In this document: in pieces, positions 2,210 to 20,727 of the stretch
Numbering within the stretch: position 1 is the stretch's first letter
Layout: the number at the start of each line of letters is the position of its first letter
Virus record (IMG/VR): IMGVR_UViG_3300033433_000009
Coordinates: 1-24,021 of that record
DNA: 24,021 nt
From: a virus
Taxonomy: Duplodnaviria > Caudoviricetes
Strand: one strand, 5' to 3'
The notes under the pieces: generated by a model
What the model was told of the DNA's origin: nothing
Seen by the model: the letters and a program-made list of their open reading frames with translations, nothing else
Database searches by the model: none
Program-made: the position numbers and the translations under genes

Positions 2210-2529
2210 AGCTCCTCAAGTATTACAGTGTATTCCGAATATCCACCAAACATCGACCGTTTAAGACGATCCATCCCATAAACGACAATGTGGGTTATGC
2301 CGGTTTCTTGGTGCAGCCAGGTAAACGAGCTACCCTGATTGCCGTTAAAATGCCCTTTAATCGTCTCATAGTCCGAGTTAGGAGTCCGGAAAATGAGCGT
2401 AAACACCTCTCTTTTTTTTGTCGATCCCCGGCGGACCCGGATATAGTTGCCCTCGGATTCCGTTTTGATGATCGGGATGATATACTCTTCGCTGCTGCCT
2501 CGACGGTACCTGATTGCCGGAAACACCAT
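2206..2529 (-). CDS. Distal tail protein, lambda gpM-like
   Basis: 107 aa directly after the tape measure; F-x-W motif (GSSFTWLH); coupled to both neighbours. Confidence 0.7.
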   Translation of the reverse strand: MVFPAIRYRRGSSEEYIIPIIKTESEGNYIRVRRGSTKKREVFTLIFRTPNSDYETIKGHFNGNQGSSFTWLHQETGITHIVVYGMDRLKRSMFGGYSEYTVILEEL

Positions 2530-5072: not shown

Positions 5073-5264
5073 TCAATTCCCGTTTCGCCGTTTAGCCTCC
5101 TCTAAAGCCTCCTCCTCATACTCCTGATTGAGCTTGTGAAACTCTTTCCAGTGAACAAACTCATCCATCGTCATCTCTCGCTTCCACTCTGCCACAGTTC
5201 GGCCACCTAACTTTTCAGCCAGCCAGAACCAGGTGTACAGTCCTGGCTGGTTTCTTAGTTTCCC
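5073..5264 (-). CDS. Tail assembly chaperone gpT extension (expressed as G-T fusion by -1 frameshift)
   Basis: The -1 frame from GGGAAAC reads LRNQPGLYTWFWLAEKLGGRTVAEWKREMTMDEFVHWKEF...RRNGN-stop(5073), ending 3 nt before the tape measure ATG; gpT-like LA..LG.TV.E...M...E...W pattern. Confidence 0.88.
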   Translation of the reverse strand, partial: GKLRNQPGLYTWFWLAEKLGGRTVAEWKREMTMDEFVHWKEFHKLNQEYEEEALEEAKRRNGN

Positions 5265-5587
5265 TCCGCAACAGCCGATGGCGTTACAGCACTGATCGCC
5301 CTGGCAAGCCGTCCCGTAGTCTCAACAAAGCCCTTGCTCATCAGGACATCGATATCCTCATCGGAAAACACCCGGGCTCCCTGGGCATTAAGCGCAGTCG
5401 ACACAATAAGCTGCGCATTGCGACGTGGTCCCGTAGCCTTCTCATCAAGCAGATTGTTCGCGACGTCATACTGTTCACCAGTCACCGGCTTATAGTATAT
5501 TTTTTCATTTTCCCACTCAGGAACAACAATGTCGAGCAGCGGAAGAGCGTCATAAATCCGCGCAATTTTTTCAATCAACCGTCCCAT
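5255..5587 (-). CDS. Tail assembly chaperone gpG-like
   Basis: 110 aa between tail tube and tape measure; IVVPEW, G.RVFSDED motifs; slippery site at the 3' end. Confidence 0.85.
   Translation of the reverse strand: MGRLIEKIARIYDALPLLDIVVPEWENEKIYYKPVTGEQYDVANNLLDEKATGPRRNAQLIVSTALNAQGARVFSDEDIDVLMSKGFVETTGRLARAISAVTPSAVAEGN
5258..5264 (-). promoter_or_regulatory. -1 ribosomal frameshift slippery heptamer G GGA AAC
   Basis: GAG GGA AAC TAA at the end of gpG; same class as lambda G GGA AAG. Confidence 0.9.
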
Positions 5588-10073: not shown

Positions 10074-11039
10074 TCATCCGACCCGCAGACCTGGCAAGCA
10101 GGCAATCGAGCGATCATTGAAGCACCCTGAATCGCACTGCAGCTCGACGAGGATCTCGCTGAACACGTCGTTTGCCACCGGCTCGCCGACATACAGACCG
10201 TACGGAGTGGTCATCATGGACAGGTAAGCCTGCTCCTCGGAACGGAAGGCAAAAATTGATGAACAATTCACTGACGTGCCAAGAGTTTCAGAGAACGGCA
10301 GGTTCTCGACTCCAGCAGGGGTGTACCCGCCTCCGACTATCGGAATCCGGTCGAATTTCGTTATCTGACGGCCGAACTCATCCTCGGTTATCTGTACCGC
10401 CTGGTCGGCAATCGTTGTCAGAATCGATACGGCCTCCTCGGCCATGACGATACAGGACGCACCGCCGCCGACACTGCGGATCAGCTTCCTCAGCGCCTTG
10501 ATGAACTTCTGCTGCGACTTCACAGCAGTATCCGAGATACCATCAAGCACCTGCAGACCATTTTCCCCAAAATCGGTTAGTGTCTGCGTGGCAGGTAGTC
10601 CAGCACAGAGTACCCTGAGCCCGTCGAACTGCTTGGAATCCACTGAATGGTTGCCGTTGATCACATACCCCATGAACTCCTTTCCGAGGTTTCCGGAAAA
10701 CGATTTCAGGTTTCGCACCAGGGCAGTGGCGACCGGATCGGAACCGCCAGAAAGCACACCTCGACGGCTACGGGCACCGTCTGCCCGAACCTGCTTACCG
10801 AAAATCTTCAGCAGGAAATCTGTTGTGCTGTCACTGGCCGTTTTCTTTCCCTGATAGGCCGTGTCGAGCTGACGGAACTCGCCCTGCGACACGAGATTTG
10901 TGTCATGGTTCAGCGAAGCACCTCCACCAGCCTCGACGAAGAAATGCAGAAAAGAGCCGAGTGGAAAGTTTTTTTTGAACTCGGTTATCGCCAGCTTTGC
11001 GTTTGAGCTGGACGTATTGGATATCTGATCAATAAGCAT
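10074..11039 (-). CDS. Major capsid protein (B3/BcepMu-type, HK97 fold inferred)
   Basis: 321 aa after the protease/scaffold; FRQLD, LKIFG..V.AD, KQFDGL, FGRQITKF, SSIFAFR motifs; strong GGAGG SD. Confidence 0.88.
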   Translation of the reverse strand: MLIDQISNTSSSNAKLAITEFKKNFPLGSFLHFFVEAGGGASLNHDTNLVSQGEFRQLDTAYQGKKTASDSTTDFLLKIFGKQVRADGARSRRGVLSGGSDPVATALVRNLKSFSGNLGKEFMGYVINGNHSVDSKQFDGLRVLCAGLPATQTLTDFGENGLQVLDGISDTAVKSQQKFIKALRKLIRSVGGGASCIVMAEEAVSILTTIADQAVQITEDEFGRQITKFDRIPIVGGGYTPAGVENLPFSETLGTSVNCSSIFAFRSEEQAYLSMMTTPYGLYVGEPVANDVFSEILVELQCDSGCFNDRSIACLPGLRVG

Positions 11040-12469: not shown

Positions 12470-12877
12470 ATGATCCTTATCCTTTTTGCGACCACCGAGG
12501 CCGCCTCCACGATTCCGGTTACGACGGAAATGAATGAGCTTGCCGCGCAGCTCGGCATTGCTACGCTGCTCTTCTTCGGCCTGATCACCATCGCCACCGT
12601 GCTCATCCTCTATATCCGTAGTCAGTCCCGTGAGGCTGAAAAGCGGATCGAGACCAACCGCCAGACCTACGACAAGATCATCGAGACCATCCGCACTGAC
12701 AGGGAGCACGATCAGCAAATTTTGTTGGGCGCCCTCGAGGATAACCGGGAACAGATCGCTGTCGTCAGCAAAGCCGTCGAATCGATGAAGGCACAGAGCC
12801 AGGCAATCAACGTCCTCCTCGACAAAACCTCGCGCCTCCTCGAGACGCGCTGCATCCACCAGATGAACAAACCATGA
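12470..12877 (+). CDS. Single-TM coiled-coil protein (Mu gp25-like position; holin candidate)
   Basis: LGIATLLFFGLITIATVLILYI TM followed by a coiled coil; alternative start at 12530. Confidence 0.6.
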   Translation: MILILFATTEAASTIPVTTEMNELAAQLGIATLLFFGLITIATVLILYIRSQSREAEKRIETNRQTYDKIIETIRTDREHDQQILLGALEDNREQIAVVSKAVESMKAQSQAINVLLDKTSRLLETRCIHQMNKP

Positions 12878-13119
12878 ACCATATCCGACTACAAAAAAAA
12901 GGCCAGCTCTCTGACCTTGAGGCGCGACGAAAGAATCTTATCATCAAGGCCGACAACCAGCTCATCATCATCCTGCAGAAAGCCTACACCGATGGTGACT
13001 CTGGCAGCATCGATAGCCTTGGCCTGAAAACAGCCGCCGACGAACTGCACGAGATCGTCGTTGAAATTGGTGTCATCGACACCCAGATCAATAAGCTCCG
13101 CGACGAGCTGTATAGCTGA
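12874..13119 (+). CDS. Hypothetical coiled-coil protein (Mu gp26 position)
   Basis: 81 aa, ATGA overlap with the upstream gene; precedes the small terminase. Confidence 0.7.
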   Translation: MNHIRLQKKGQLSDLEARRKNLIIKADNQLIIILQKAYTDGDSGSIDSLGLKTAADELHEIVVEIGVIDTQINKLRDELYS

Positions 13120-13135
13120 TACTGATACTGATACT
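13116..13135 (+). repeat. Hexamer tandem repeat (CTGATA)x3.3
   Basis: CTGATACTGATACTGATACT, spanning the stop at 13117-13119 and ending just before ATG 13136. Confidence 0.9.
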
Positions 13136-13567
13136 ATGGCCAAGAAAGCCCAATACTACCAGATCGCCGAACAACTGTTCGTCTACGACCACCTGAGCGT
13201 TGCCGACATCGCTGAGCAGCTCCCCGTCAGTGAACGCACCATCGGCGACTGGAGGCGAGACGGAAACTGGGACGCCCGGCGCGATCAGACCGTCGCCCTG
13301 CAAACCTCAACGACTGAGAAGCTCCACAAGCTCGTCGACAAGCTCATTGACAACACGGTCTCCAGCATTGAAGGCGGGACAGAGCCTTCACAATCACAGC
13401 TCTACCTCATCGGCAAGCTGACCCCGGCACTTATCCGGATGCAGAAGTTCGAAGAGACCGTCACGACCACCAAACCAGCCGCCGGCGTTACCGAAGAGAC
13501 ACTTTCTCAACAGAAGCAGGTACTCCAGGAGATGCAGGAAACGCTCATAAGGCTCGGCCTGGCATGA
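13136..13567 (+). CDS. Terminase small subunit (N-terminal HTH, DUF1804-like)
   Basis: MAKKAQYY..AEQLFV...SVADIAEQLPVSERTIGDWRRDGNWD HTH; overlaps the terL start; start moved from 13061. Confidence 0.8.
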   Translation: MAKKAQYYQIAEQLFVYDHLSVADIAEQLPVSERTIGDWRRDGNWDARRDQTVALQTSTTEKLHKLVDKLIDNTVSSIEGGTEPSQSQLYLIGKLTPALIRMQKFEETVTTTKPAAGVTEETLSQQKQVLQEMQETLIRLGLA

Positions 13568-15114
13568 CCCGGAAAGCCATACATCCCGAGGAGCTTGCTG
13601 GCCACTCGAAAGTGGTCGAGTCGAAAGTCTTCCTGAAATATCAGCAAGAGGTAATTGACGACGAGCACATCGCCCAGTTAGTCGAGAAGGGGAGGCAGGA
13701 AGGATTGTCCTGGGCACTCGCCTACAAGTCCCAGAAATGGACTGGCAAGGAGGGGCGATACTCGACCTACTTCGCCACCAAGACCAAGATTTTGGCCAAA
13801 CAATTTATACAGGACACCGCCAACTGGGCCAAACTCGACCGGCTTATCAAGAGCGTCTCCGACAGCACCTTCGAGAGCAGCGTCAAGGTAGAGAATGCCG
13901 ATGGCAAGGAGATCGACGTCAGCACCTACGGGATCCGCTTTGCAAACGGCCTTGAAATCGTCGCTCTCTCCAGCAACGCAGACGCCTTTCGCGGCTGGCG
14001 CGGCTACAAGATTGCAGACGAATTTGCCATCCACAAGCAACAGTCCGAGATGCTCGACTCTATCCTTCCATCGAGGATGTGGCGATTCCCGTTTACCCTC
14101 TGCAGCACGCACAAAGGCAAGAACAGCGAATTCAACAAGCTGATCGTCAAGTTCAAGAAAGGAGTTCTTGGAGACGACTGGAACCTGATCTCCATTACCA
14201 TTGACCGAGCAGTCGAAGAGGGCTTGCTCGAAAAAATCTACAAGCGTCCATTCACACCTGAAGAACGCAAAGCCTGGATTGCCAACCTCGAACGAGAGGA
14301 AGGTGTTCGAAGAATGAATCAGGAATACCGATGCATTCCTGAAGACGAAGCAGGATCCTTTTACAGCTATGACCTGATCGTCTCATGTGAATACGACGAG
14401 GCTTTGTTTTTTTCGGACGACGGCGTCAGAAAATTTACCGGCCAAGGTCAAGAACAAGAAGCCATTGCCTGGTTTAAAAAGGTTGCCTTTGCCGTTGAAA
14501 TACTCGGCACAGGAGCCTTTTATCTCGGTATGGACATCGGTCGTAAAGTCAACTACACCGTGCTTGCTCTTATTGAGGTAGTAGCCGGCATCCGTATCGT
14601 TCGTGCCATCGCCGCCCTCGACGACTTCCGATACCAGGCACAACAGGACTGCGCATCAATCTGGATCAAGACACGGCGATTCCATCGAGTCTGTGTGGAC
14701 AACCGAGGTATGGGCAACGAAACCGGTGAGCGCCTCCAGGAGCAGCACGGGGAATACGCCGTCGAACGCATTGACGCCACCAACAAGCTTAAAGAAATCT
14801 TTGCCTACGCCTGTCTGCGCCTCATGCTCGACAAGTTGCTCAGATTTCCGTCAGACGACACCGTCCGAGACGACTTTCACAGCATCAGAAAAGAAACTAC
14901 CGACTCCGGAAACACCCGCTACGTCGCAGGAACCAACGACAGCGATGAAAACAGTCACGGTGACTTCTACACTGCGATCTCGCTCGGTGTGCATGCCGCC
15001 GAAGGATCAATCGTCAGCCTCGACACTCTCATCGAGGCCGCCGAATCCAGCTCTGCAGGATACCCCAGCCTTGGAGACTCGCTCCTCGACCAACTCAGAC
15101 AGTTCCACTCATGA
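13564..15114 (+). CDS. terL: Terminase large subunit, Mu gp28-like
   Basis: Q motif LKYQQ, Walker A-like EKGRQEGLSW, Walker B IADEFA, motif III CST, nuclease GMDIGR, D..GMG, HGD. Confidence 0.95.
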   Translation: MTRKAIHPEELAGHSKVVESKVFLKYQQEVIDDEHIAQLVEKGRQEGLSWALAYKSQKWTGKEGRYSTYFATKTKILAKQFIQDTANWAKLDRLIKSVSDSTFESSVKVENADGKEIDVSTYGIRFANGLEIVALSSNADAFRGWRGYKIADEFAIHKQQSEMLDSILPSRMWRFPFTLCSTHKGKNSEFNKLIVKFKKGVLGDDWNLISITIDRAVEEGLLEKIYKRPFTPEERKAWIANLEREEGVRRMNQEYRCIPEDEAGSFYSYDLIVSCEYDEALFFSDDGVRKFTGQGQEQEAIAWFKKVAFAVEILGTGAFYLGMDIGRKVNYTVLALIEVVAGIRIVRAIAALDDFRYQAQQDCASIWIKTRRFHRVCVDNRGMGNETGERLQEQHGEYAVERIDATNKLKEIFAYACLRLMLDKLLRFPSDDTVRDDFHSIRKETTDSGNTRYVAGTNDSDENSHGDFYTAISLGVHAAEGSIVSLDTLIEAAESSSAGYPSLGDSLLDQLRQFHS

Positions 15115-16406
15115 TCCTCGACAAATACGGCAATCCCATGCTCAGCACTGCGCCGCCACAGACCGGAGACGTCGCAACAAACTCCCTCGTCGAAGGGCTT
15201 CTCGCCATCAGTGAGGCTATGCCAAACCCAAGCACGACCCTCAAAACCATCGGCAAAATTATCGACGCCTTCGACCAGACACAGGCGCATCCCGACGTTG
15301 CGTCTGCCAGTGGCAACTTCCACGACGGCATCAAAGCTCTAACCTGGGACCTTAGCCAATCCACCCAGGAAGGTCCCCGTTCCGCCTGGCTCAAAGCAGC
15401 ATTCGAGCCGATCGACATTCCCGAGGCATGCAGCAGCTTCGTCTCCGCCCGCGAGTACGGCTACACCGTCTGCGAGGTGCTCTGGTACAAAGACGGCTCG
15501 ACCACGCTGCCGTACAAGATCGTTGAGAAGCCCCGCAAGTGGTTTAAGTTCGACAACTGCGGAAAGCTCCTCCTCATCACCAAGGAGAAGCCCAACGGCA
15601 TCGTTGTCGACGAAGCCTGGCCGCGAAAGTTTCTCGTCGTTCAGCATAAACCGACCTACCTCAATCCTTACGGCAAAGGACTGCTTGACACAATCTACTG
15701 GTACGTCCAGGGACTCTACAGCAATTTTGAATGGCATCTCCAGTTTTTGGAAGATGACGGGTCAGACCACTGGATCGCCTACGTCAACAAAGACGCTGAC
15801 CAAGGGTATATAAACCGAGTCCAGGCGGCCATATCGACCCTGCGCCGCCGTGGTGTCTGCGTGCTTTACGACGGAGTCAAGGCGGAACAACGCGAAAATA
15901 AAGGGCGAAAAAGCAGCAGTGACGTCTACCTCGCATTCGAGACGTCAGTCATCACGAAAATAAACAAGCTGTGGCTTGGCACTGACTTGAGTATGCAGCT
16001 CAACGACGTCGGAGCCCGCGCAAGCTCCGAAACAGGAGCCGATATCCGAGGCGAAGCCCTCTCCAGCGGTAAAAAGCTCGCCGAGAACGCGATGAACCAG
16101 CTCATCCGCTGGATCCTCGAAATCAACAAGGTTCCCGGCAGCGATACCGAGCAGATCAACTTTGTCCTCTCAAAGACTGCGCTCAGCACTAAAGAGCAAG
16201 CCGATATTGACAACACCTACTCGACCGCCAGTGGGATGAAAATTACCGAGCAGCTCCTTACCCGCAGGGGCTACGAGCCCGGCGACTTTGAGCCGGCAAT
16301 CCCGGCAACACCGACAACAACCTTCGCTTCACGACCGGAGTCTGGATACGGCAGCGGACTCGACAGTCTCCTCAACGCCACGGAGGACCGCAAAAAAAAA
16401 GCATGA
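15111..16406 (+). CDS. Portal protein, Mu gp29-like (DUF935)
   Basis: YGYTVCEVLW, KFLVVQH, NPYGKGLL, INKLWLG.DL, GARA motifs; follows terL. Confidence 0.92.
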   Translation: MILDKYGNPMLSTAPPQTGDVATNSLVEGLLAISEAMPNPSTTLKTIGKIIDAFDQTQAHPDVASASGNFHDGIKALTWDLSQSTQEGPRSAWLKAAFEPIDIPEACSSFVSAREYGYTVCEVLWYKDGSTTLPYKIVEKPRKWFKFDNCGKLLLITKEKPNGIVVDEAWPRKFLVVQHKPTYLNPYGKGLLDTIYWYVQGLYSNFEWHLQFLEDDGSDHWIAYVNKDADQGYINRVQAAISTLRRRGVCVLYDGVKAEQRENKGRKSSSDVYLAFETSVITKINKLWLGTDLSMQLNDVGARASSETGADIRGEALSSGKKLAENAMNQLIRWILEINKVPGSDTEQINFVLSKTALSTKEQADIDNTYSTASGMKITEQLLTRRGYEPGDFEPAIPATPTTTFASRPESGYGSGLDSLLNATEDRKKKA

Positions 16407-16436
16407 CGGCCGCCGAGGAGTACCTTCGAGCGGCCG
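16392..16436 (+). promoter_or_regulatory. Candidate -1 frameshift cassette (A9 run + 6-nt spacer + stem-loop) joining portal to gpF
   Basis: AAA AAA AAA GCA TGA; the -1 frame AAA AGC ATG enters gpF; hairpin CGGCCGC(16407-16413)...GCGGCCG(16430-16436) with inner CGAGG/CCTTCG pairing. Confidence 0.55.
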
Positions 16437-17269
16437 CACCCGACATATCCTTTATTACTGCCTGGTCAACAGCTCTTGAACAGGTGTTAAACGATGCATG
16501 GTCAACCGGCTATAGCGACAAGCAAAACGAGGTCGATAGTATCGATCGGAGCGAATCCGGTACGGCCACGACCTTCGCCAGCAAAGATTTTAATCTGAGC
16601 TGGGGAAACAAGGAAGCCGCACGGTTCCACCGGCTCAAAGCCTTCGCCAGCGCCATTATCACCGATTCCGATCTTTCGGATGCCGTCAAGACCTCGCTTG
16701 CCGACGCCCTCGACACTGGCCAGAGCTACCGCGACTGGCGCAAAAACGTCAACCAGGTCTTTGATGATTCCGGTTACAGCCGCCTCGGGAGCTGGCAGGC
16801 TGAAACCATCTACCGCACCGAGAGCAGCATGGCCTACGGCGCCGGCAGCTATGCCAAGCAGTTGGAGGTTTCCGACCGCTTCCCGTTCTACGAATACTCG
16901 ACAGCCCACGACGAGCGCGTCCGCGCTGGTCACCGCGCCCTGGACGGCAAAATCTTCAAGACTGACGATCAGCAGTACTATCCACCACTTGGATTCAACT
17001 GCCGATGCAGATCCATTCCGGTCAGCAAGCTCCAGGCAAAAAAACGAGGCATCACAGGTCCCGACACCGTCACCCCGGAGATGCAATCCCAGCTCGGCAA
17101 CGTTGAGTTCATCGGCGACAAGATTCACTTGTTCGAGACCTACCTGCAGGACAAACTCAACCGCCTCGATGCGGTACGCGCCCAGATGATCCTCGATAAA
17201 ATCGCCGAGCTGCGCAAAGTGGCCGCAGTCGACGTCAATACCGAAACCACAACAACACAGACCCTATGA
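16403..17269 (+). CDS. Minor head protein, Mu gpF / SPP1 gp7 family
   Basis: ETIYRTE...AY.AG, YSTAHDERVR..H.ALDG, YPPLGFNCRC. Confidence 0.93.
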   Translation: MTAAEEYLRAAAPDISFITAWSTALEQVLNDAWSTGYSDKQNEVDSIDRSESGTATTFASKDFNLSWGNKEAARFHRLKAFASAIITDSDLSDAVKTSLADALDTGQSYRDWRKNVNQVFDDSGYSRLGSWQAETIYRTESSMAYGAGSYAKQLEVSDRFPFYEYSTAHDERVRAGHRALDGKIFKTDDQQYYPPLGFNCRCRSIPVSKLQAKKRGITGPDTVTPEMQSQLGNVEFIGDKIHLFETYLQDKLNRLDAVRAQMILDKIAELRKVAAVDVNTETTTTQTL

Positions 17270-17913
17270 GCACCATTGCCACCAGACCAGACCTCGTCGC
17301 CAAACTGATCGTGCACCGGCAGCGTTTCGAGGCCATCGCCAGCCTCAGCGCCAAAACCGAAGCACATGCCCTCAACATCGCAAGGCGCTACACCACATGT
17401 GCAGGCATCGACGACATCACCGCCGCTCTGCAAACCATCGAGCGCACCAAGCTCAAAACCTACGCCAGCGTTAAATCTGCCGGCATCGACGGAGAACCCT
17501 ACGCAGGGATCCTCGATTTACTGCACAGCGCAAAAATATCAATTGCCGAGCTTGACGCCTGGGTCATCGCCATCAAACGAACCACCTTCGCCTCAGGGAA
17601 CAAGTTCCAGCCATTGCCGACGCATGACGAAGCCTGGCAGACCTTTTCCCGTGTCTTCAACGAACTCCACACCGCCAAACTGACCGCCCGGACGCTCCTT
17701 AGTACCATACCACCAAAGCTCTCCGACGAAGACATCCGCACCGCCGCCCGGTTCTATTGGGAACTCATGGCCCTGCCCCTTCGGCAGCAAGCATGGCTGC
17801 TCATCCCTGAAGACGAGCAGCTCGCTATCCGTATCAGGCATCCAAACAATCCCGATGGAGCCATGCAATCCACCGCCAACTACTACAACAAGCCCAAGAC
17901 GACAACATCATGA
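17266..17913 (+). CDS. Hypothetical helical protein between F and G
   Basis: 215 aa, ATGA-coupled at both ends, codon style like its neighbours. Confidence 0.75.
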   Translation: MSTIATRPDLVAKLIVHRQRFEAIASLSAKTEAHALNIARRYTTCAGIDDITAALQTIERTKLKTYASVKSAGIDGEPYAGILDLLHSAKISIAELDAWVIAIKRTTFASGNKFQPLPTHDEAWQTFSRVFNELHTAKLTARTLLSTIPPKLSDEDIRTAARFYWELMALPLRQQAWLLIPEDEQLAIRIRHPNNPDGAMQSTANYYNKPKTTTS

Positions 17914-18356
17914 ACCAGTTCGTTCGAGTCACTCTTCGCGGCCTCGACGAGGCCCGTAATAGCATCGAGCAGTTTCCCCGCAGATGCCAGGCCATCCTGC
18001 GCACGCACAGCGTCCTGCGCGACATAGGCACCGTCTTCGTCTCAAGTGCAGTCCGAACCATCGATGCTGGCGGTCGACCGCCATACAAACCCCTTGCCGA
18101 AAGCACAACCTCCGCCAAGCTCCGCAAGTACAAGAAATCCAGTCACATCCTGGTTGCCGGAGGCCAGCTCCGCCAAAGCCTCGACTACGACGTTGCCGGT
18201 GGCAAACTGACCCTCACCTCGGTCGAATACCTCAAGTTTCACCAGTGGGAAGAAGACCGCGTCAAGGCACGCTTCCCGGCTCGTCCCGTCTGGGGCATTC
18301 ACGACGACGACCATGATGAAATCAGCGATATCATCATTGAAGCCCTGAAAAAATGA
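17910..18356 (+). CDS. Virion morphogenesis / tail completion protein, Mu gpG-like
   Basis: GRP.YKPLAEST...K, ILVAGGQLRQSL, YLKFHQW, FPARPVWGI...D..EI. Confidence 0.9.
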   Translation: MNQFVRVTLRGLDEARNSIEQFPRRCQAILRTHSVLRDIGTVFVSSAVRTIDAGGRPPYKPLAESTTSAKLRKYKKSSHILVAGGQLRQSLDYDVAGGKLTLTSVEYLKFHQWEEDRVKARFPARPVWGIHDDDHDEISDIIIEALKK

Positions 18357-18423
18357 CGAAAAATTTGCGAGTGCACATAAAAATCATTATGGATAGATAT
18401 CCCATGCACTCAACGCCACAATC

Positions 18424-18690
18424 ATGTCCAGCGCACAACCCAACGAACTCATATCATTCATAGCCAAGCACGCCGGCGAGCAGGTGGCGCATCTAGTCTG
18501 GAAAGAGTTCGAAAAAAGCCAGCCATACATTCCCAGTTACCCCAAGGCTGACAAGAAACAGGCCTACATCCTCAGCGCACTCGAACGAGGCGAAAACGTT
18601 CGATCAATCGCAAGGCAGCTCAACCTCAGCGACCGACAGATATACTCAAGGCTCAACCAGCCCTTGCGCAAGCAGATCAGCCTTTTCTGA
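18424..18690 (+). CDS. Mor/C-family late transcription activator
   Basis: G..VA..VW.EF...PYIP dimerisation-type segment; HTH NVRSIARQLNLSDRQIY; ends QISLF. Confidence 0.85.
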   Translation: MSSAQPNELISFIAKHAGEQVAHLVWKEFEKSQPYIPSYPKADKKQAYILSALERGENVRSIARQLNLSDRQIYSRLNQPLRKQISLF

Positions 18691-19689: not shown

Positions 19690-20122
19690 GGTTATTCTCC
19701 GGTTGCACATATTCCAATCCTTCCAGCTTTTTAAACTGATTAACAAAAGTTGACGATGACGAAAAAAAAGGCTCATACCACACCATAACCGTGTCTGGGT
19801 ACTCTTTCTTTAACTTGTTCATAATCGCAATCTGGCGCTTACTTTTTCCGTTGAGATCTTGTTTTTTAAACAGTGATGTGGTACAAGTCTTTTTCCTCCA
19901 GACCTTTTTAACAAAACTGTCATAATCACCATGCGACGGCCATCCGGTAGAGATCCTGATTTTCTCATCAATAAAGACAAACAAAGAATACTGTATCCTT
20001 GTCTGCGATGACCGCCTCCATTGCACAGTGATCTTTCGTCCATCAAGGGCAAACTGCACGACCGCAAATTGGTTCTGCAGCTTCGTATTGATAACCGTCC
20101 ACTGCTCTGATGATATCGCCAT
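19682..20122 (-). CDS. Hypothetical early-region protein
   Basis: 146 aa, AT-richer than its neighbours, basic; overlaps the gemA start. Confidence 0.75.
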   Translation of the reverse strand: MAISSEQWTVINTKLQNQFAVVQFALDGRKITVQWRRSSQTRIQYSLFVFIDEKIRISTGWPSHGDYDSFVKKVWRKKTCTTSLFKKQDLNGKSKRQIAIMNKLKKEYPDTVMVWYEPFFSSSSTFVNQFKKLEGLEYVQPENNHG

Positions 20123-20136
20123 TTTTTACCCCTGTT

Positions 20137-20727
20137 TTATTCCTGATACTCTTTCTCCGATCCGCCCAACACCAGCGCCTGTGTAGCCATCCCGGCCTTG
20201 ATATCGGGAACCCTTAAATCACCCGTCATAATGAGGTACTCACCAAGCGCCAGCAGCATTCCGAAAGAGCGCCCAAACTCAGCCCTCTCCGCTGTGCGCA
20301 ATGGCGAACGCCGCCGTTGATCATCATCACTCCACCCGTTTGATGCTTTGCGCAGCTTGAGGTGCAAGGTGTCCGCCACCATACTCACACTCATAATCGA
20401 ACCAAACCGGTCCGTCAGTTTCGGAGCCCGGTTAAACCGCTTGAACATCCCCGGTTTTGCTTCCAGCTCTTTCGGTACGGCCGTATCACCAAACCTGGCC
20501 TCCGCTGCAAGTCTTGCCTCAACAGCATACTCCTTCTGCTCGTGATAGCTATGATAGACCTGCTTCTTCCCTTTGTGCAGATATGCCCTCCAAAGCCCTT
20601 TCTTCGGGTCCCAAGCCACACCCTTCACCGGGTGCTGATCAACCATCACCACCCGCGAATCAACCGCCGTATTAAACAGCTCCGGAAGCATCACCAAAGC
20701 CTCCACTCCCTTCTTTTTTTTACTCAT
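20137..20727 (-). CDS. AP2-domain DNA-binding protein (no HNH domain)
   Basis: VKGVAWDPKKGLWRAYLHKGKKQVYHSYHEQKEYAVEARLAAEARFG matches the AP2 pattern. Confidence 0.75.
   Translation of the reverse strand: MSKKKKGVEALVMLPELFNTAVDSRVVMVDQHPVKGVAWDPKKGLWRAYLHKGKKQVYHSYHEQKEYAVEARLAAEARFGDTAVPKELEAKPGMFKRFNRAPKLTDRFGSIMSVSMVADTLHLKLRKASNGWSDDDQRRRSPLRTAERAEFGRSFGMLLALGEYLIMTGDLRVPDIKAGMATQALVLGGSEKEYQE

What the first reader, a model, noticed from the sequence alone, without database searches (positions are those of the whole stretch)
16392..16436. Candidate programmed -1 frameshift fusing portal to gpF
Seen: the portal ends CGC AAA AAA AAA GCA TGA and gpF starts at the overlapping ATG (16403) in the -1 frame. 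A slip on A AAA AAA reads AAA AGC ATG straight into gpF with no stop, giving a fusion of about 719 aa. Exactly 6 nt downstream is a GC-rich hairpin (7-bp CGGCCGC/GCGGCCG plus inner pairing, 16407-16436). Known: heptamer + 5-9 nt spacer + stem-loop is the canonical -1 PRF layout (dnaX, IS3 family), A9 runs also permit transcriptional slippage, and SPP1 gp7/MuF binds portal at low copy. Inference: recoding tethers a few gpF molecules to the portal ring and sets their stoichiometry. I know of no description of portal-F recoding. The hairpin would also occlude independent gpF initiation, and there is an SD-like GGAGG at 16382-16386 that could serve either process.
Basis: partly seen in the sequence, partly recalled or inferred. 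Interest (0 to 1): 0.85.

Follow-up and report, generated by a model that had tools for sequence, protein, structure and literature searches.

The report
Nine-A slip joins portal to MuF
This bacterial virus's portal gene ends in a run of exactly nine A's that diverged relatives keep letter for letter, although almost none give the next head gene (MuF) a start codon there, so slippage at the run likely makes some portal subunits carry MuF as a covalent extension.

Summary
The window is a Mu-like phage whose closest host-labelled relatives are prophages of Chlorobiaceae. In 43 distinct related portal/gpF junctions (portals down to 32% identity; Chlorobiaceae and Bacteroidota hosts) the run is exactly nine A's followed by G, and gpF begins at the run in the -1 frame. 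Only the window has an ATG there, and 13 of 43 lack even CTG. The ninth A sits in rare synonymous codons, whereas no comparable synonymous site elsewhere in the portal is invariant. A sister locus with ten A's is a hard portal-MuF fusion. Run length is the invariant, it survives a change of codon phase, and host dnaX uses the same device (A10). I therefore favour RNA-polymerase slippage (0.52) over ribosomal -1 frameshifting (0.36). Both give the same 719-aa fusion. No expression data could be obtained. I found no paper on portal-MuF recoding, but unchecked notes from this scan report it in many other phages.

The parts
15111..16406 (+). Portal gene (Mu gp29 type), 431 aa, ending ...DRKKKA-stop; the unshifted product
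   Evidence: ORF; Pfam Portal_Mu E 5e-47; phrog_113; the family profile matches solved portals 8rka and 9khx
16392..16400 (+). A9 slip site (codons K428-K430); the invariant core of the element
   Evidence: Sequence; exactly 9 A then G in 43 of 43 distinct related junctions
16382..16386 (+). GGAGG, SD-like; possible accessory stimulator in this branch only
   Evidence: 5 nt before the run, 16 nt before the ATG; z -1.95 against synonymous recoding; present in 7 of 43 loci
16401..16406 (+). 6-nt spacer GCATGA, holding the portal stop (16404-16406) and the ATG (16403-16405) that only this locus has
   Evidence: CTG at this place in 29 of 43 loci, other codons in 13
16407..16436 (+). GC-rich hairpin (about -22 kcal/mol); possible accessory stimulator, would also hinder fresh initiation at the ATG
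   Evidence: shared with a compensatory C-G to A-U change by L001; strong folds in only 9 of 42 loci
16400..17269 (+). gpF/MuF reading frame as entered from the run (Ser, then the 288-aa ORF from 16403); MuF domain at about 16682-17014; no C-terminal toxin domain here
   Evidence: conserved from the first codon after the run, dN/dS 0.13-0.36 in 7 of 8 pairs
13564..15114 (+). Terminase large subunit (context)

Best explanation
The A9 run is a conserved slip site at which RNA polymerase likely adds an extra A to part of the transcripts, so that ordinary translation would give both the plain 431-aa portal and a 719-aa portal-gpF(MuF) fusion, and some subunits of the portal ring would carry MuF into the head. 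Shown here: the site, its conservation, the lack of a conserved gpF start, purifying selection on gpF, hard-fused relatives, and the same kind of A-run in host dnaX. Inferred: that slippage happens (about 0.88 for either route), that the polymerase rather than the ribosome is the main slipper, and that the fusion assembles into a mixed portal ring. In the window's branch the GGAGG and hairpin may add ribosomal -1 shifting, and the newly gained ATG may add some free gpF by re-initiation.
For: For the fusion: (1) 28 of 30 distinct junctions with portal identity of 30% or more have exactly A9-G with gpF in the -1 frame; the two others are L058 (A10, fused) and L069 (31%, no run). A separate search by gpF added 15 new junctions, all A9-G. 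The portals fall into 13 clusters at 70% identity. (2) In 41 of 43 the codons are NNA AAA AAA AAG, with TTA (29), CTA (5) or GCA (7) first. A-ending Leu codons are 7% and GCA 22% elsewhere in the first-set portals. Control: 0 of 27 invariant four/six-fold columns and 0 of 5 invariant K/E/Q columns keep their third base across 29 genes. (3) An ATG right after the run occurs in 1 of 43 loci (L067 has a GTG at codon 4). In 16 of 42 the first ATG/GTG/TTG is at codon 104 or later, inside or past the MuF domain. In 59 of 60 distant, unfused loci a start does precede MuF, and the longest A-run at 73 distant portal ends is 7. (4) The codon between the run and the CTG is constrained in the -1 frame (Ala/Val, 26 of 26) and free in the portal frame. 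(5) L058 is an 880-aa portal-MuF-ART ORF with A10 at the joint. For the polymerase: length 9 is kept when the phase changes and A_AAA_AAG is lost (window, L001). Nine is the length at which bacterial RNA polymerase slips efficiently (PMC5009743, PMC1088944). Most loci lack a stem and an SD. A tRNA-Lys(CUU) is present in 7 of 10 host genomes, the condition PMC5009743 links to Thermus using slippage. In-frame A_AAA_AAG is not avoided in host ORFs (O/E 1.6 and 1.3, like the other frames). dnaX has A10-G with a long -1 frame in 6 of 6 Chlorobiaceae hosts, which PMC3711429 reads as transcriptional slippage.
Against: No RNA or protein evidence was obtained. All 43 A9 loci shift in one direction, which by the rule of PMC3711429 predicts a ribosomal mechanism. 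NNA AAA AAA AAG is also two overlapping -1 heptamers, so ribosomal shifting could select the ninth A too. The window has a well-placed stem, and stem and GGAGG co-occur in its branch. Runs of 9 or more A are not clearly avoided in host ORFs (3 seen against 2.1 expected; 8 against 10.0, crude ORF calls, small numbers), so A9 alone may slip only modestly. The phase change may be a single event: only two loci show it at DNA level. The window itself has a usable ATGA overlap like its neighbours. L058's A10 rests on one contig and could be an assembly miscall.
Confidence: 0.52

Rival explanations
1. The same 719-aa fusion is made mainly by programmed -1 ribosomal frameshifting on A_AAA_AAA / A_AAA_AAG, helped here by the GGAGG and the hairpin 6 nt downstream.
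For: A canonical heptamer in frame in 43 of 43 loci, A_AAA_AAG in 41, always in the -1 direction. Window hairpin z -3.2 against synonymous recoding. Covariation score 0.254 against 0.136 +/- 0.043 in shuffles (1 of 500) among 10 sequences of the branch, with slid controls at most 0.114. Five loci have a strong stem starting 6 nt after the last Lys codon, and all five have GGAGG. The phage also carries a lambda-type G GGA AAC site in its tail chaperone gene.
Against: Stem absent in 33 of 42 loci and GGAGG absent in 36 of 43. The mean SD z-score over 29 loci is -0.19. SD use at host starts is weak (6 of 51 against controls 7 and 8; 14 of 54 against 6 and 5). Hosts have tRNA-Lys(CUU). The window and L001 lost A_AAA_AAG but kept nine A's. 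The covariation test used a structure taken from the window itself, and L009/L013/L067 pair in a register three bases away.
Confidence: 0.36
2. No fusion: gpF is a separate protein started by translational coupling at the ATG (window) or a weak CTG (relatives), with the A-run as an initiation enhancer.
For: ATGA overlaps are the norm in this operon; CTG or ATG overlaps the portal stop in 30 of 43 loci; other starts in this operon also lack an SD.
Against: 13 of 43 loci have neither ATG nor CTG there yet keep A9 and gpF homology from the run on. L008 and L021 have no near-cognate start from -30 to +45. The codon upstream of the CTG is constrained in the gpF frame. An enhancer would not need exactly nine A's. 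L058 reads through in frame.
Confidence: 0.06
3. Phase variation at DNA level: replication slippage toggles A9 (portal only) and A10 (fusion) among phage genomes.
For: L058 has A10 and is fused, while its sister L008 has A9.
Against: 43 of 44 assemblies of this group show A9, a state that under this model would never express gpF, yet gpF is under purifying selection. L058 differs from L008 by further substitutions around the run, not only by one A.
Confidence: 0.04
4. The run is a by-product of a conserved Lys-Lys-Lys tail with no recoding role.
For: All 24 aligned portals have a Lys-rich end.
Against: Lys-Lys pairs elsewhere in these genes use all four codon pairs (27/23/12/11). Two loci use AAA for only 11-15% of Lys yet keep A9. 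Third bases are free at all 32 control columns. It leaves gpF without a start.
Confidence: 0.02

Closest known systems
Two-ORF dnaX of Chlorobi (PMC3711429; PMC5009743) and Thermus thermophilus dnaX (transcriptional slippage on nine A; PMC1088944)
   Same: A-run of 9-10 near the end of the short product. In Chlorobi the stop follows in the zero frame and the long product needs the -1 frame. Seen here in 6 of 6 Chlorobiaceae host genomes as SAA AAA AAA AAG, nearly the phage's own string.
   Different: Cellular replicase subunits (about 1:1 in Thermus); here a virion portal and a head protein, with a run one A shorter than the host's. In Thermus the long form is the default. The Chlorobi mechanism is itself argued, not measured, in the passages I saw.
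Shigella flexneri mxiE (two overlapping ORFs joined by transcriptional slippage; PMC1088944)
   Same: Insertion of one untemplated base joins two overlapping ORFs; the longer product needs the slip.
   Different: A run of U, in a transcription activator.
E. coli dnaX and IS3-family -1 ribosomal frameshifts (A_AAA_AAG, SD, stem-loop; PMC4066793, PMC5009743)
   Same: Same heptamer in 41 of 43 loci; SD-like motif and stem in the window's branch.
   Different: Stimulators are missing in most relatives, three extra A's are conserved, and hosts have a second tRNA-Lys(CUU), which E. coli lacks.
Frameshift-extended phage structural proteins (tail chaperones lambda G/GT and SPP1 17.5/17.5*, SPP1 tail tube 17.1*; PMC6316719)
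   Same: Recoding sets a fixed ratio of a short and a C-terminally extended virion or assembly protein.
   Different: These concern tail and capsid genes; none of the passages I saw concerns the portal or MuF.
Hard portal-MuF gene fusions (Microbacterium clusters EA3/EA5/EA8 and EB; PMC7302621) and SPP1 gp7 bound to portal gp6 (PMC5576092, PMC6316719)
   Same: MuF is linked to the portal, covalently in the fusions and non-covalently at one to two copies in SPP1. Fusions were also seen here (P0025, L030, L070, L076, L058, L319).
   Different: Here the link is conditional, so one locus would give both forms; no recoding is mentioned in those passages.

Membership tests
Programmed transcriptional slippage (T. 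thermophilus dnaX / mxiE type) | Homopolymer of at least nine A or T at the frame change | tested here: met
   A9 in the window and in 43 of 43 junctions
Programmed transcriptional slippage (T. thermophilus dnaX / mxiE type) | Signal independent of codon phase | tested here: inconclusive
   2 of 43 loci changed phase and kept nine A's, possibly one event
Programmed transcriptional slippage (T. thermophilus dnaX / mxiE type) | Orthologues shift in both directions (rule of PMC3711429) | tested here: not met
   All 43 A9 loci need -1 (+1 A). L058 and L319 reverse which form is the default but need no opposite shift. The same paper assigns its -1-frame dnaX cluster to slippage.
Programmed transcriptional slippage (T. 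thermophilus dnaX / mxiE type) | mRNA population with untemplated extra A's | not testable with these tools
   No raw RNA reads could be laid on the junction
Programmed -1 ribosomal frameshift (E. coli dnaX / IS3 type) | In-frame X_XXY_YYZ heptamer with a conserved -1 direction | tested here: met
   A_AAA_AAA in the window; A_AAA_AAG in 41 of 43
Programmed -1 ribosomal frameshift (E. coli dnaX / IS3 type) | 3' stem-loop a few bases after the heptamer | tested here: inconclusive
   Met in the window; a top-10% fold in only 9 of 42 loci, about 4 expected by chance. PMC4066793 notes such structures are not always found in prokaryotes.
Programmed -1 ribosomal frameshift (E. coli dnaX / IS3 type) | 5' internal SD | tested here: inconclusive
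   GGAGG 7 nt before the window's heptamer (the optimum of about 9-14 nt is recalled, from no call); 7 of 43 loci
Programmed -1 ribosomal frameshift (E. coli dnaX / IS3 type) | Host with a sole tRNA-Lys(UUU), which makes AAG shift-prone | tested here: not met
   tRNA-Lys(CUU) in 7 of 10 host genomes of related prophages; the window's own host is not held
Programmed -1 ribosomal frameshift (E. coli dnaX / IS3 type) | Shift occurs on an mRNA of templated length | not testable with these tools
   Needs in vitro translation or ribosome profiling
Mu-like transposable phage head module | Terminase - portal (gp29) - gpF - gpG order, plus Mu transposase A/B | tested here: met
   Pfam and PHROG hits; a 215-aa orphan lies between gpF and gpG
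Hard portal-MuF fusion genes | One uninterrupted ORF | tested here: not met
   Portal stop at 16404-16406; the portal frame also stops after the run in all 43 A9 loci
MuF polymorphic toxins (PMC5576092) | Toxin domain C-terminal to MuF | tested here: not met
   Window gpF is 288 aa with MuF only. Relatives carry ART (L008, L058, L248, L316) or PBECR2 (L012, L018) domains. Immunity genes were not examined.

The most novel reading that the evidence does not exclude
These phages have borrowed their hosts' dnaX slippage device to build a mixed portal ring. The length of an A-run acts as a dial that sets how many of the twelve portal subunits carry MuF and, in many relatives, a MuF-linked nuclease or ADP-ribosyltransferase cargo. 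One-base changes flip a lineage between portal-default (A9), fusion-default (A10; L058, L319) and permanently fused states. This would be transcriptional slippage used to set the stoichiometry of a tailed-phage virion protein, and it would mean that start-less 'gpF' genes are systematically mis-annotated.
Probability: 0.35. Interest if true: 0.85.

Novelty: new variant of a known kind. Interest (0 to 1): 0.72.

Why it matters
MuF/gp7 is encoded by about a third of tailed phages (PMC5576092), rides on the portal at low copy in SPP1 and often carries toxins, yet how it is loaded and counted is known from essentially one phage. A conditional covalent fusion gives a concrete, testable answer and implies portal rings with unequal subunits. 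It adds the portal to the short list of recoded phage genes, perhaps by polymerase slippage rather than by the ribosome. It also explains why gpF in these prophages is called with a wrong internal start or missed. The site differs from the host's dnaX site by one A, so run length and product ratio can be compared in the same cell. Within this scan the idea is no longer unique: unchecked notes report portal-MuF slip sites in many other phages. What this case adds is the Chlorobiaceae lineage, the phase-shift and codon controls, and the host dnaX and tRNA comparison.

Tried and rejected
RNA evidence: for a relative's junction (L039:2500-5600) no RNA holder was listed, so no reads were laid; this is no evidence either way. 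The single-protein search of genome contigs found no relative; alignment queries did. A search for longer proteins like gpF found none above threshold (weak evidence by the tool's own note). Idea that the first 55 residues of the gpF frame are the displaced C-terminal helix of ordinary Mu portals: profile tests were not significant (best E 0.5; hhalign probability 0.4%), so it is not claimed. A structure prediction of gpF was queued but unfinished; no fold evidence is used. No solved relative of gpF was found by sequence. The first pair count used a structure string that was misplaced and is disregarded; one search is the corrected one. A universal hairpin and a universal SD were tested and rejected. 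A CUG start as the general route was rejected. An assembly error in the window's run was rejected, because 42 other distinct junctions from separate assemblies have nine A's. The host avoidance test for A9 was inconclusive. Strict tRNA-Lys patterns missed most genes (1 of 5 and 0 of 5) and were replaced by similarity search plus ARAGORN. One search picked the wrong ORF for L333; one search corrected it. Motif scans presuppose A9 and were not used for the counts; 5 of their 27 hits were unrelated to portal or MuF. PMC3199440 is not held, and one of the two supplement files of PMC3711429 could not be searched; either could list a portal cluster unseen by me.

Full report
Observation. The window is a 24-kb virus record of a Mu-like phage: transposase A and B, GemA, a Mor-like activator, terminase, portal, gpF, gpG, protease, capsid and tail genes. 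The portal (15111-16406, 431 aa) ends CGC AAA AAA AAA GCA TGA, and gpF (16403-17269, 288 aa) lies in the -1 frame. The A9 run (16392-16400) is the longest homopolymer in the window. The hairpin 16407-16436 starts 6 nt after the run and is unusually stable: z -4.2 to -4.9 against dinucleotide shuffles of short stretches, -1.8 for 121 nt, and -3.2 against synonymous recoding. GGAGG is at 16382-16386, and a slip gives 719 aa. The ATGA overlap alone is uninformative, since four other junctions of the operon are ATGA overlaps.

Relatives. All 24 aligned portals (the window and 23 of the 25 proteins) have a Lys-rich end, almost all KKK-X-stop. Searches with that alignment returned 129 loci. With L001, L002 and the window, 130 of 132 gave a portal end. 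Among the 30 distinct junctions with portal identity of 30% or more, 28 have exactly nine A's, then G, with gpF homology starting at the run in the -1 frame. The exceptions are L058 (A10, fused) and L069 (31%, no run, gpF in another frame with its own starts). A second search by gpF (102 loci) found a run of at least eight A's at the junction in 36 of 38 full-length relatives; the two without are 30%-identity matches starting at residue 53. It added 15 new junctions, all YTA AAA AAA AAG, each behind a portal by profile search (one only as a 36-aa fragment). Record titles name Chlorobiaceae for the near group, and Odoribacter, Rikenellaceae and Oscillospiraceae for the far group. Portal identity to the window runs from 82% to 32%, with 13 clusters at 70%. 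Among 73 distant loci (portal under 30%) the longest A-run at the portal end is 7 and three are hard fusions; 59 of 60 unfused ones have a start codon ahead of MuF.

Selection on the run. In 41 of 43 loci the codons are NNA AAA AAA AAG, and the first is TTA (29), CTA (5) or GCA (7). In the first-set portal genes A-ending Leu codons make up 7.4% and GCA 22%. Two loci use AAA for only 11-15% of their lysines, and Lys-Lys pairs elsewhere use all four codon pairs. Across 29 portal genes, none of 27 invariant four/six-fold columns and none of 5 invariant K/E/Q columns keeps its third base. The window and L001 differ from the rest by a base gained before the run and one lost after it. This moves the run's codon phase and removes A_AAA_AAG, but nine A's remain. 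Only 2 other plus-strand A-runs of nine or more occur in 176 kb of these loci.

No independent start. The ATG after the run exists only in the window. CTG stands there in 29 loci and neither codon in 13; L067 has a GTG two codons further on. In 16 of 42 loci the first ATG/GTG/TTG is at codon 104 or later, inside or beyond the MuF domain that begins near residue 90. Others have one at codons 21-64, at no fixed place. L008 and L021 have no near-cognate start from -30 to +45. The codon between the run and the CTG is always Ala or Val in the -1 frame (26 of 26) while the overlapping portal codon varies freely, so the gpF frame is constrained upstream of any start. gpF is under purifying selection, with dN/dS 0.13-0.36 in 7 of 8 pairs (L019/L041 is 0.28). 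L058, sister to L008, has ten A's and reads portal-MuF-ART as one 880-aa ORF. L319 is a 943-aa portal-MuF ORF with A10 at codon 431 and a -1 stop two codons on. I conclude, by inference, that the run joins the two frames; about 0.88.

Which machine slips. For RNA polymerase: exact length is the invariant and survives the phase change. Nine is the length at which bacterial polymerase slips efficiently (PMC5009743, passages; PMC1088944, abstract and passages). A top-10% fold follows the run in only 7 of 27 and 2 of 15 loci (L056 too short), and GGAGG precedes it in 7 of 28 and 0 of 15. SD use at host starts is weak. tRNA-Lys(CUU) was found in 7 of 10 host genomes (incomplete genomes, best matches only), and PMC5009743 links two lysine tRNAs to Thermus using slippage. 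In-frame A_AAA_AAG is not avoided in 469 crudely called host ORFs. The hosts' dnaX has A10-G, a stop 16 nt later and a long -1 frame in 6 of 6 Chlorobiaceae genomes, a gene type PMC3711429 (passages, section 10, one of two supplements) reads as transcriptional slippage. For the ribosome: the direction is -1 in all 43, which that paper's rule takes as ribosomal. The string is also two overlapping heptamers. In the window's branch a stem 6 nt downstream and GGAGG occur together in five loci, with covariation above shuffles (structure taken from the window, second group in another register). A9 runs are not clearly avoided in host ORFs. I put the polymerase at 0.52 and the ribosome at 0.36 as the main route. 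Both may act, and in the window the ATG may add free gpF by re-initiation.

Function (inferred). In SPP1, gp7/MuF binds the portal, is present at one to two copies and is needed for efficient infection (PMC5576092, PMC6316719; passages). In the Mu-like phage JBD30 the portal crown lies inside the capsid (PMC11445458, passages); that the crown is C-terminal is recalled. A slip-made fusion would co-assemble into the portal dodecamer and bring MuF, and in relatives an ART or nuclease domain, inside the head at a ratio set by the slip rate. That ratio is unknown. An A9 cassette of another gene gave 40% in E. coli (PMC3711429), so several subunits per ring are possible.

Known and new. Recoding of phage tail and capsid genes, slippage in dnaX and mxiE, and hard portal-MuF fusions (PMC7302621, passages) are all known. 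Searches (listings), and term searches within PMC5009743 (first 300,000 characters), PMC3711429, PMC4066793, PMC10885494, PMC7911831, PMC4493119 and bioRxiv 10.1101/2025.10.02.679949 (passages), gave no report of portal-MuF recoding. PMC10885494 only notes that genes found fused elsewhere might be joined by frameshifting, citing VIP2 and MuF. Subscription journals are not covered, PMC3199440 is not held, and unseen supplements could bear on this. Earlier notes of this scan (none by sequence) describe portal-MuF slip sites, several with A9 or A10, in other genomes. My reading was recorded before I saw them. They are unchecked and are not counted as support, but they make this one case of a recurring phenomenon rather than a singleton.

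Verdict. Real feature; conserved recoding site; new variant of a known kind. Interest 0.72.

Noticed in passing
window 5264-5258 (- strand), ORF 5255-5587: Lambda-type tail-chaperone slip site G GGA AAC directly before the stop. The -1 frame runs 63 codons to 5075-5073, just before the tape-measure gene. It looks like the well-known G/GT frameshift.
   Followed up: partly
L180-L184, L333 (host genomes G001-G005, G010); L331 (G006); L334 (G009): Host dnaX: A10-G with a stop 16 nt later and a long -1 frame in 6 of 6 Chlorobiaceae; A11 with a long -1 frame in the Odoribacter genome; A9 inside one ORF with a -1 stop after 2 codons in G009; no run in G008; G007 truncated.
   Followed up: yes
L319:884-3712: Flavobacteriales 943-aa in-frame portal-MuF ORF with GAA AAA AAA AAG (A10) at codon 431, a -1 stop two codons later and a -19.8 kcal/mol fold behind it: the same switch with the fusion as default.
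   Followed up: partly
L058:2992-5634: 880-aa portal-MuF-ART fusion with A10 at the joint, sister to A9 locus L008; one contig only.
   Followed up: partly
L008, L012, L018, L248, L316; L011, L022, L024, L038, L040, L041: Many relatives extend gpF by about 150-200 aa: ART or PBECR2 domains in the first group, an extension without a Pfam hit in the second. The slip would make portal-MuF-toxin chains.
   Followed up: partly
window 12470-18690 (+) against the flanks (-): The terminase-portal-gpF-gpG-Mor block is on the opposite strand to both the early genes and the protease-capsid-tail genes.
   Followed up: no
window 17266-17913 (+): 215-aa ORF between gpF and gpG with no Pfam or PHROG hit; similar ORFs lie at the same place in L001 and L002.
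   Followed up: no
window, L001, L004: By portal protein L001 groups with L004 (98/96), yet it shares the phase-shifted junction and the hairpin with the window, which suggests recombination near the junction or a parallel change. Proteins P0001 and P0004 also end in RKKKA.
   Followed up: no
L248, L250, L251: GC-rich palindromes lie in frame about 15-45 nt after the run in these distant relatives; possibly repeat elements or stimulators.
   Followed up: no
window 12893-12900 (+), 10969-10976 (-), 20714-20721 (-), 2412-2419 (-), 19762-19769 (+): Five further runs of eight A (on the strand given), one inside the capsid gene.
   Followed up: no
L317: Genome titled Oscillospiraceae, but its junction and proteins resemble the Bacteroidota set; possibly a mis-binned contig.
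   Followed up: no
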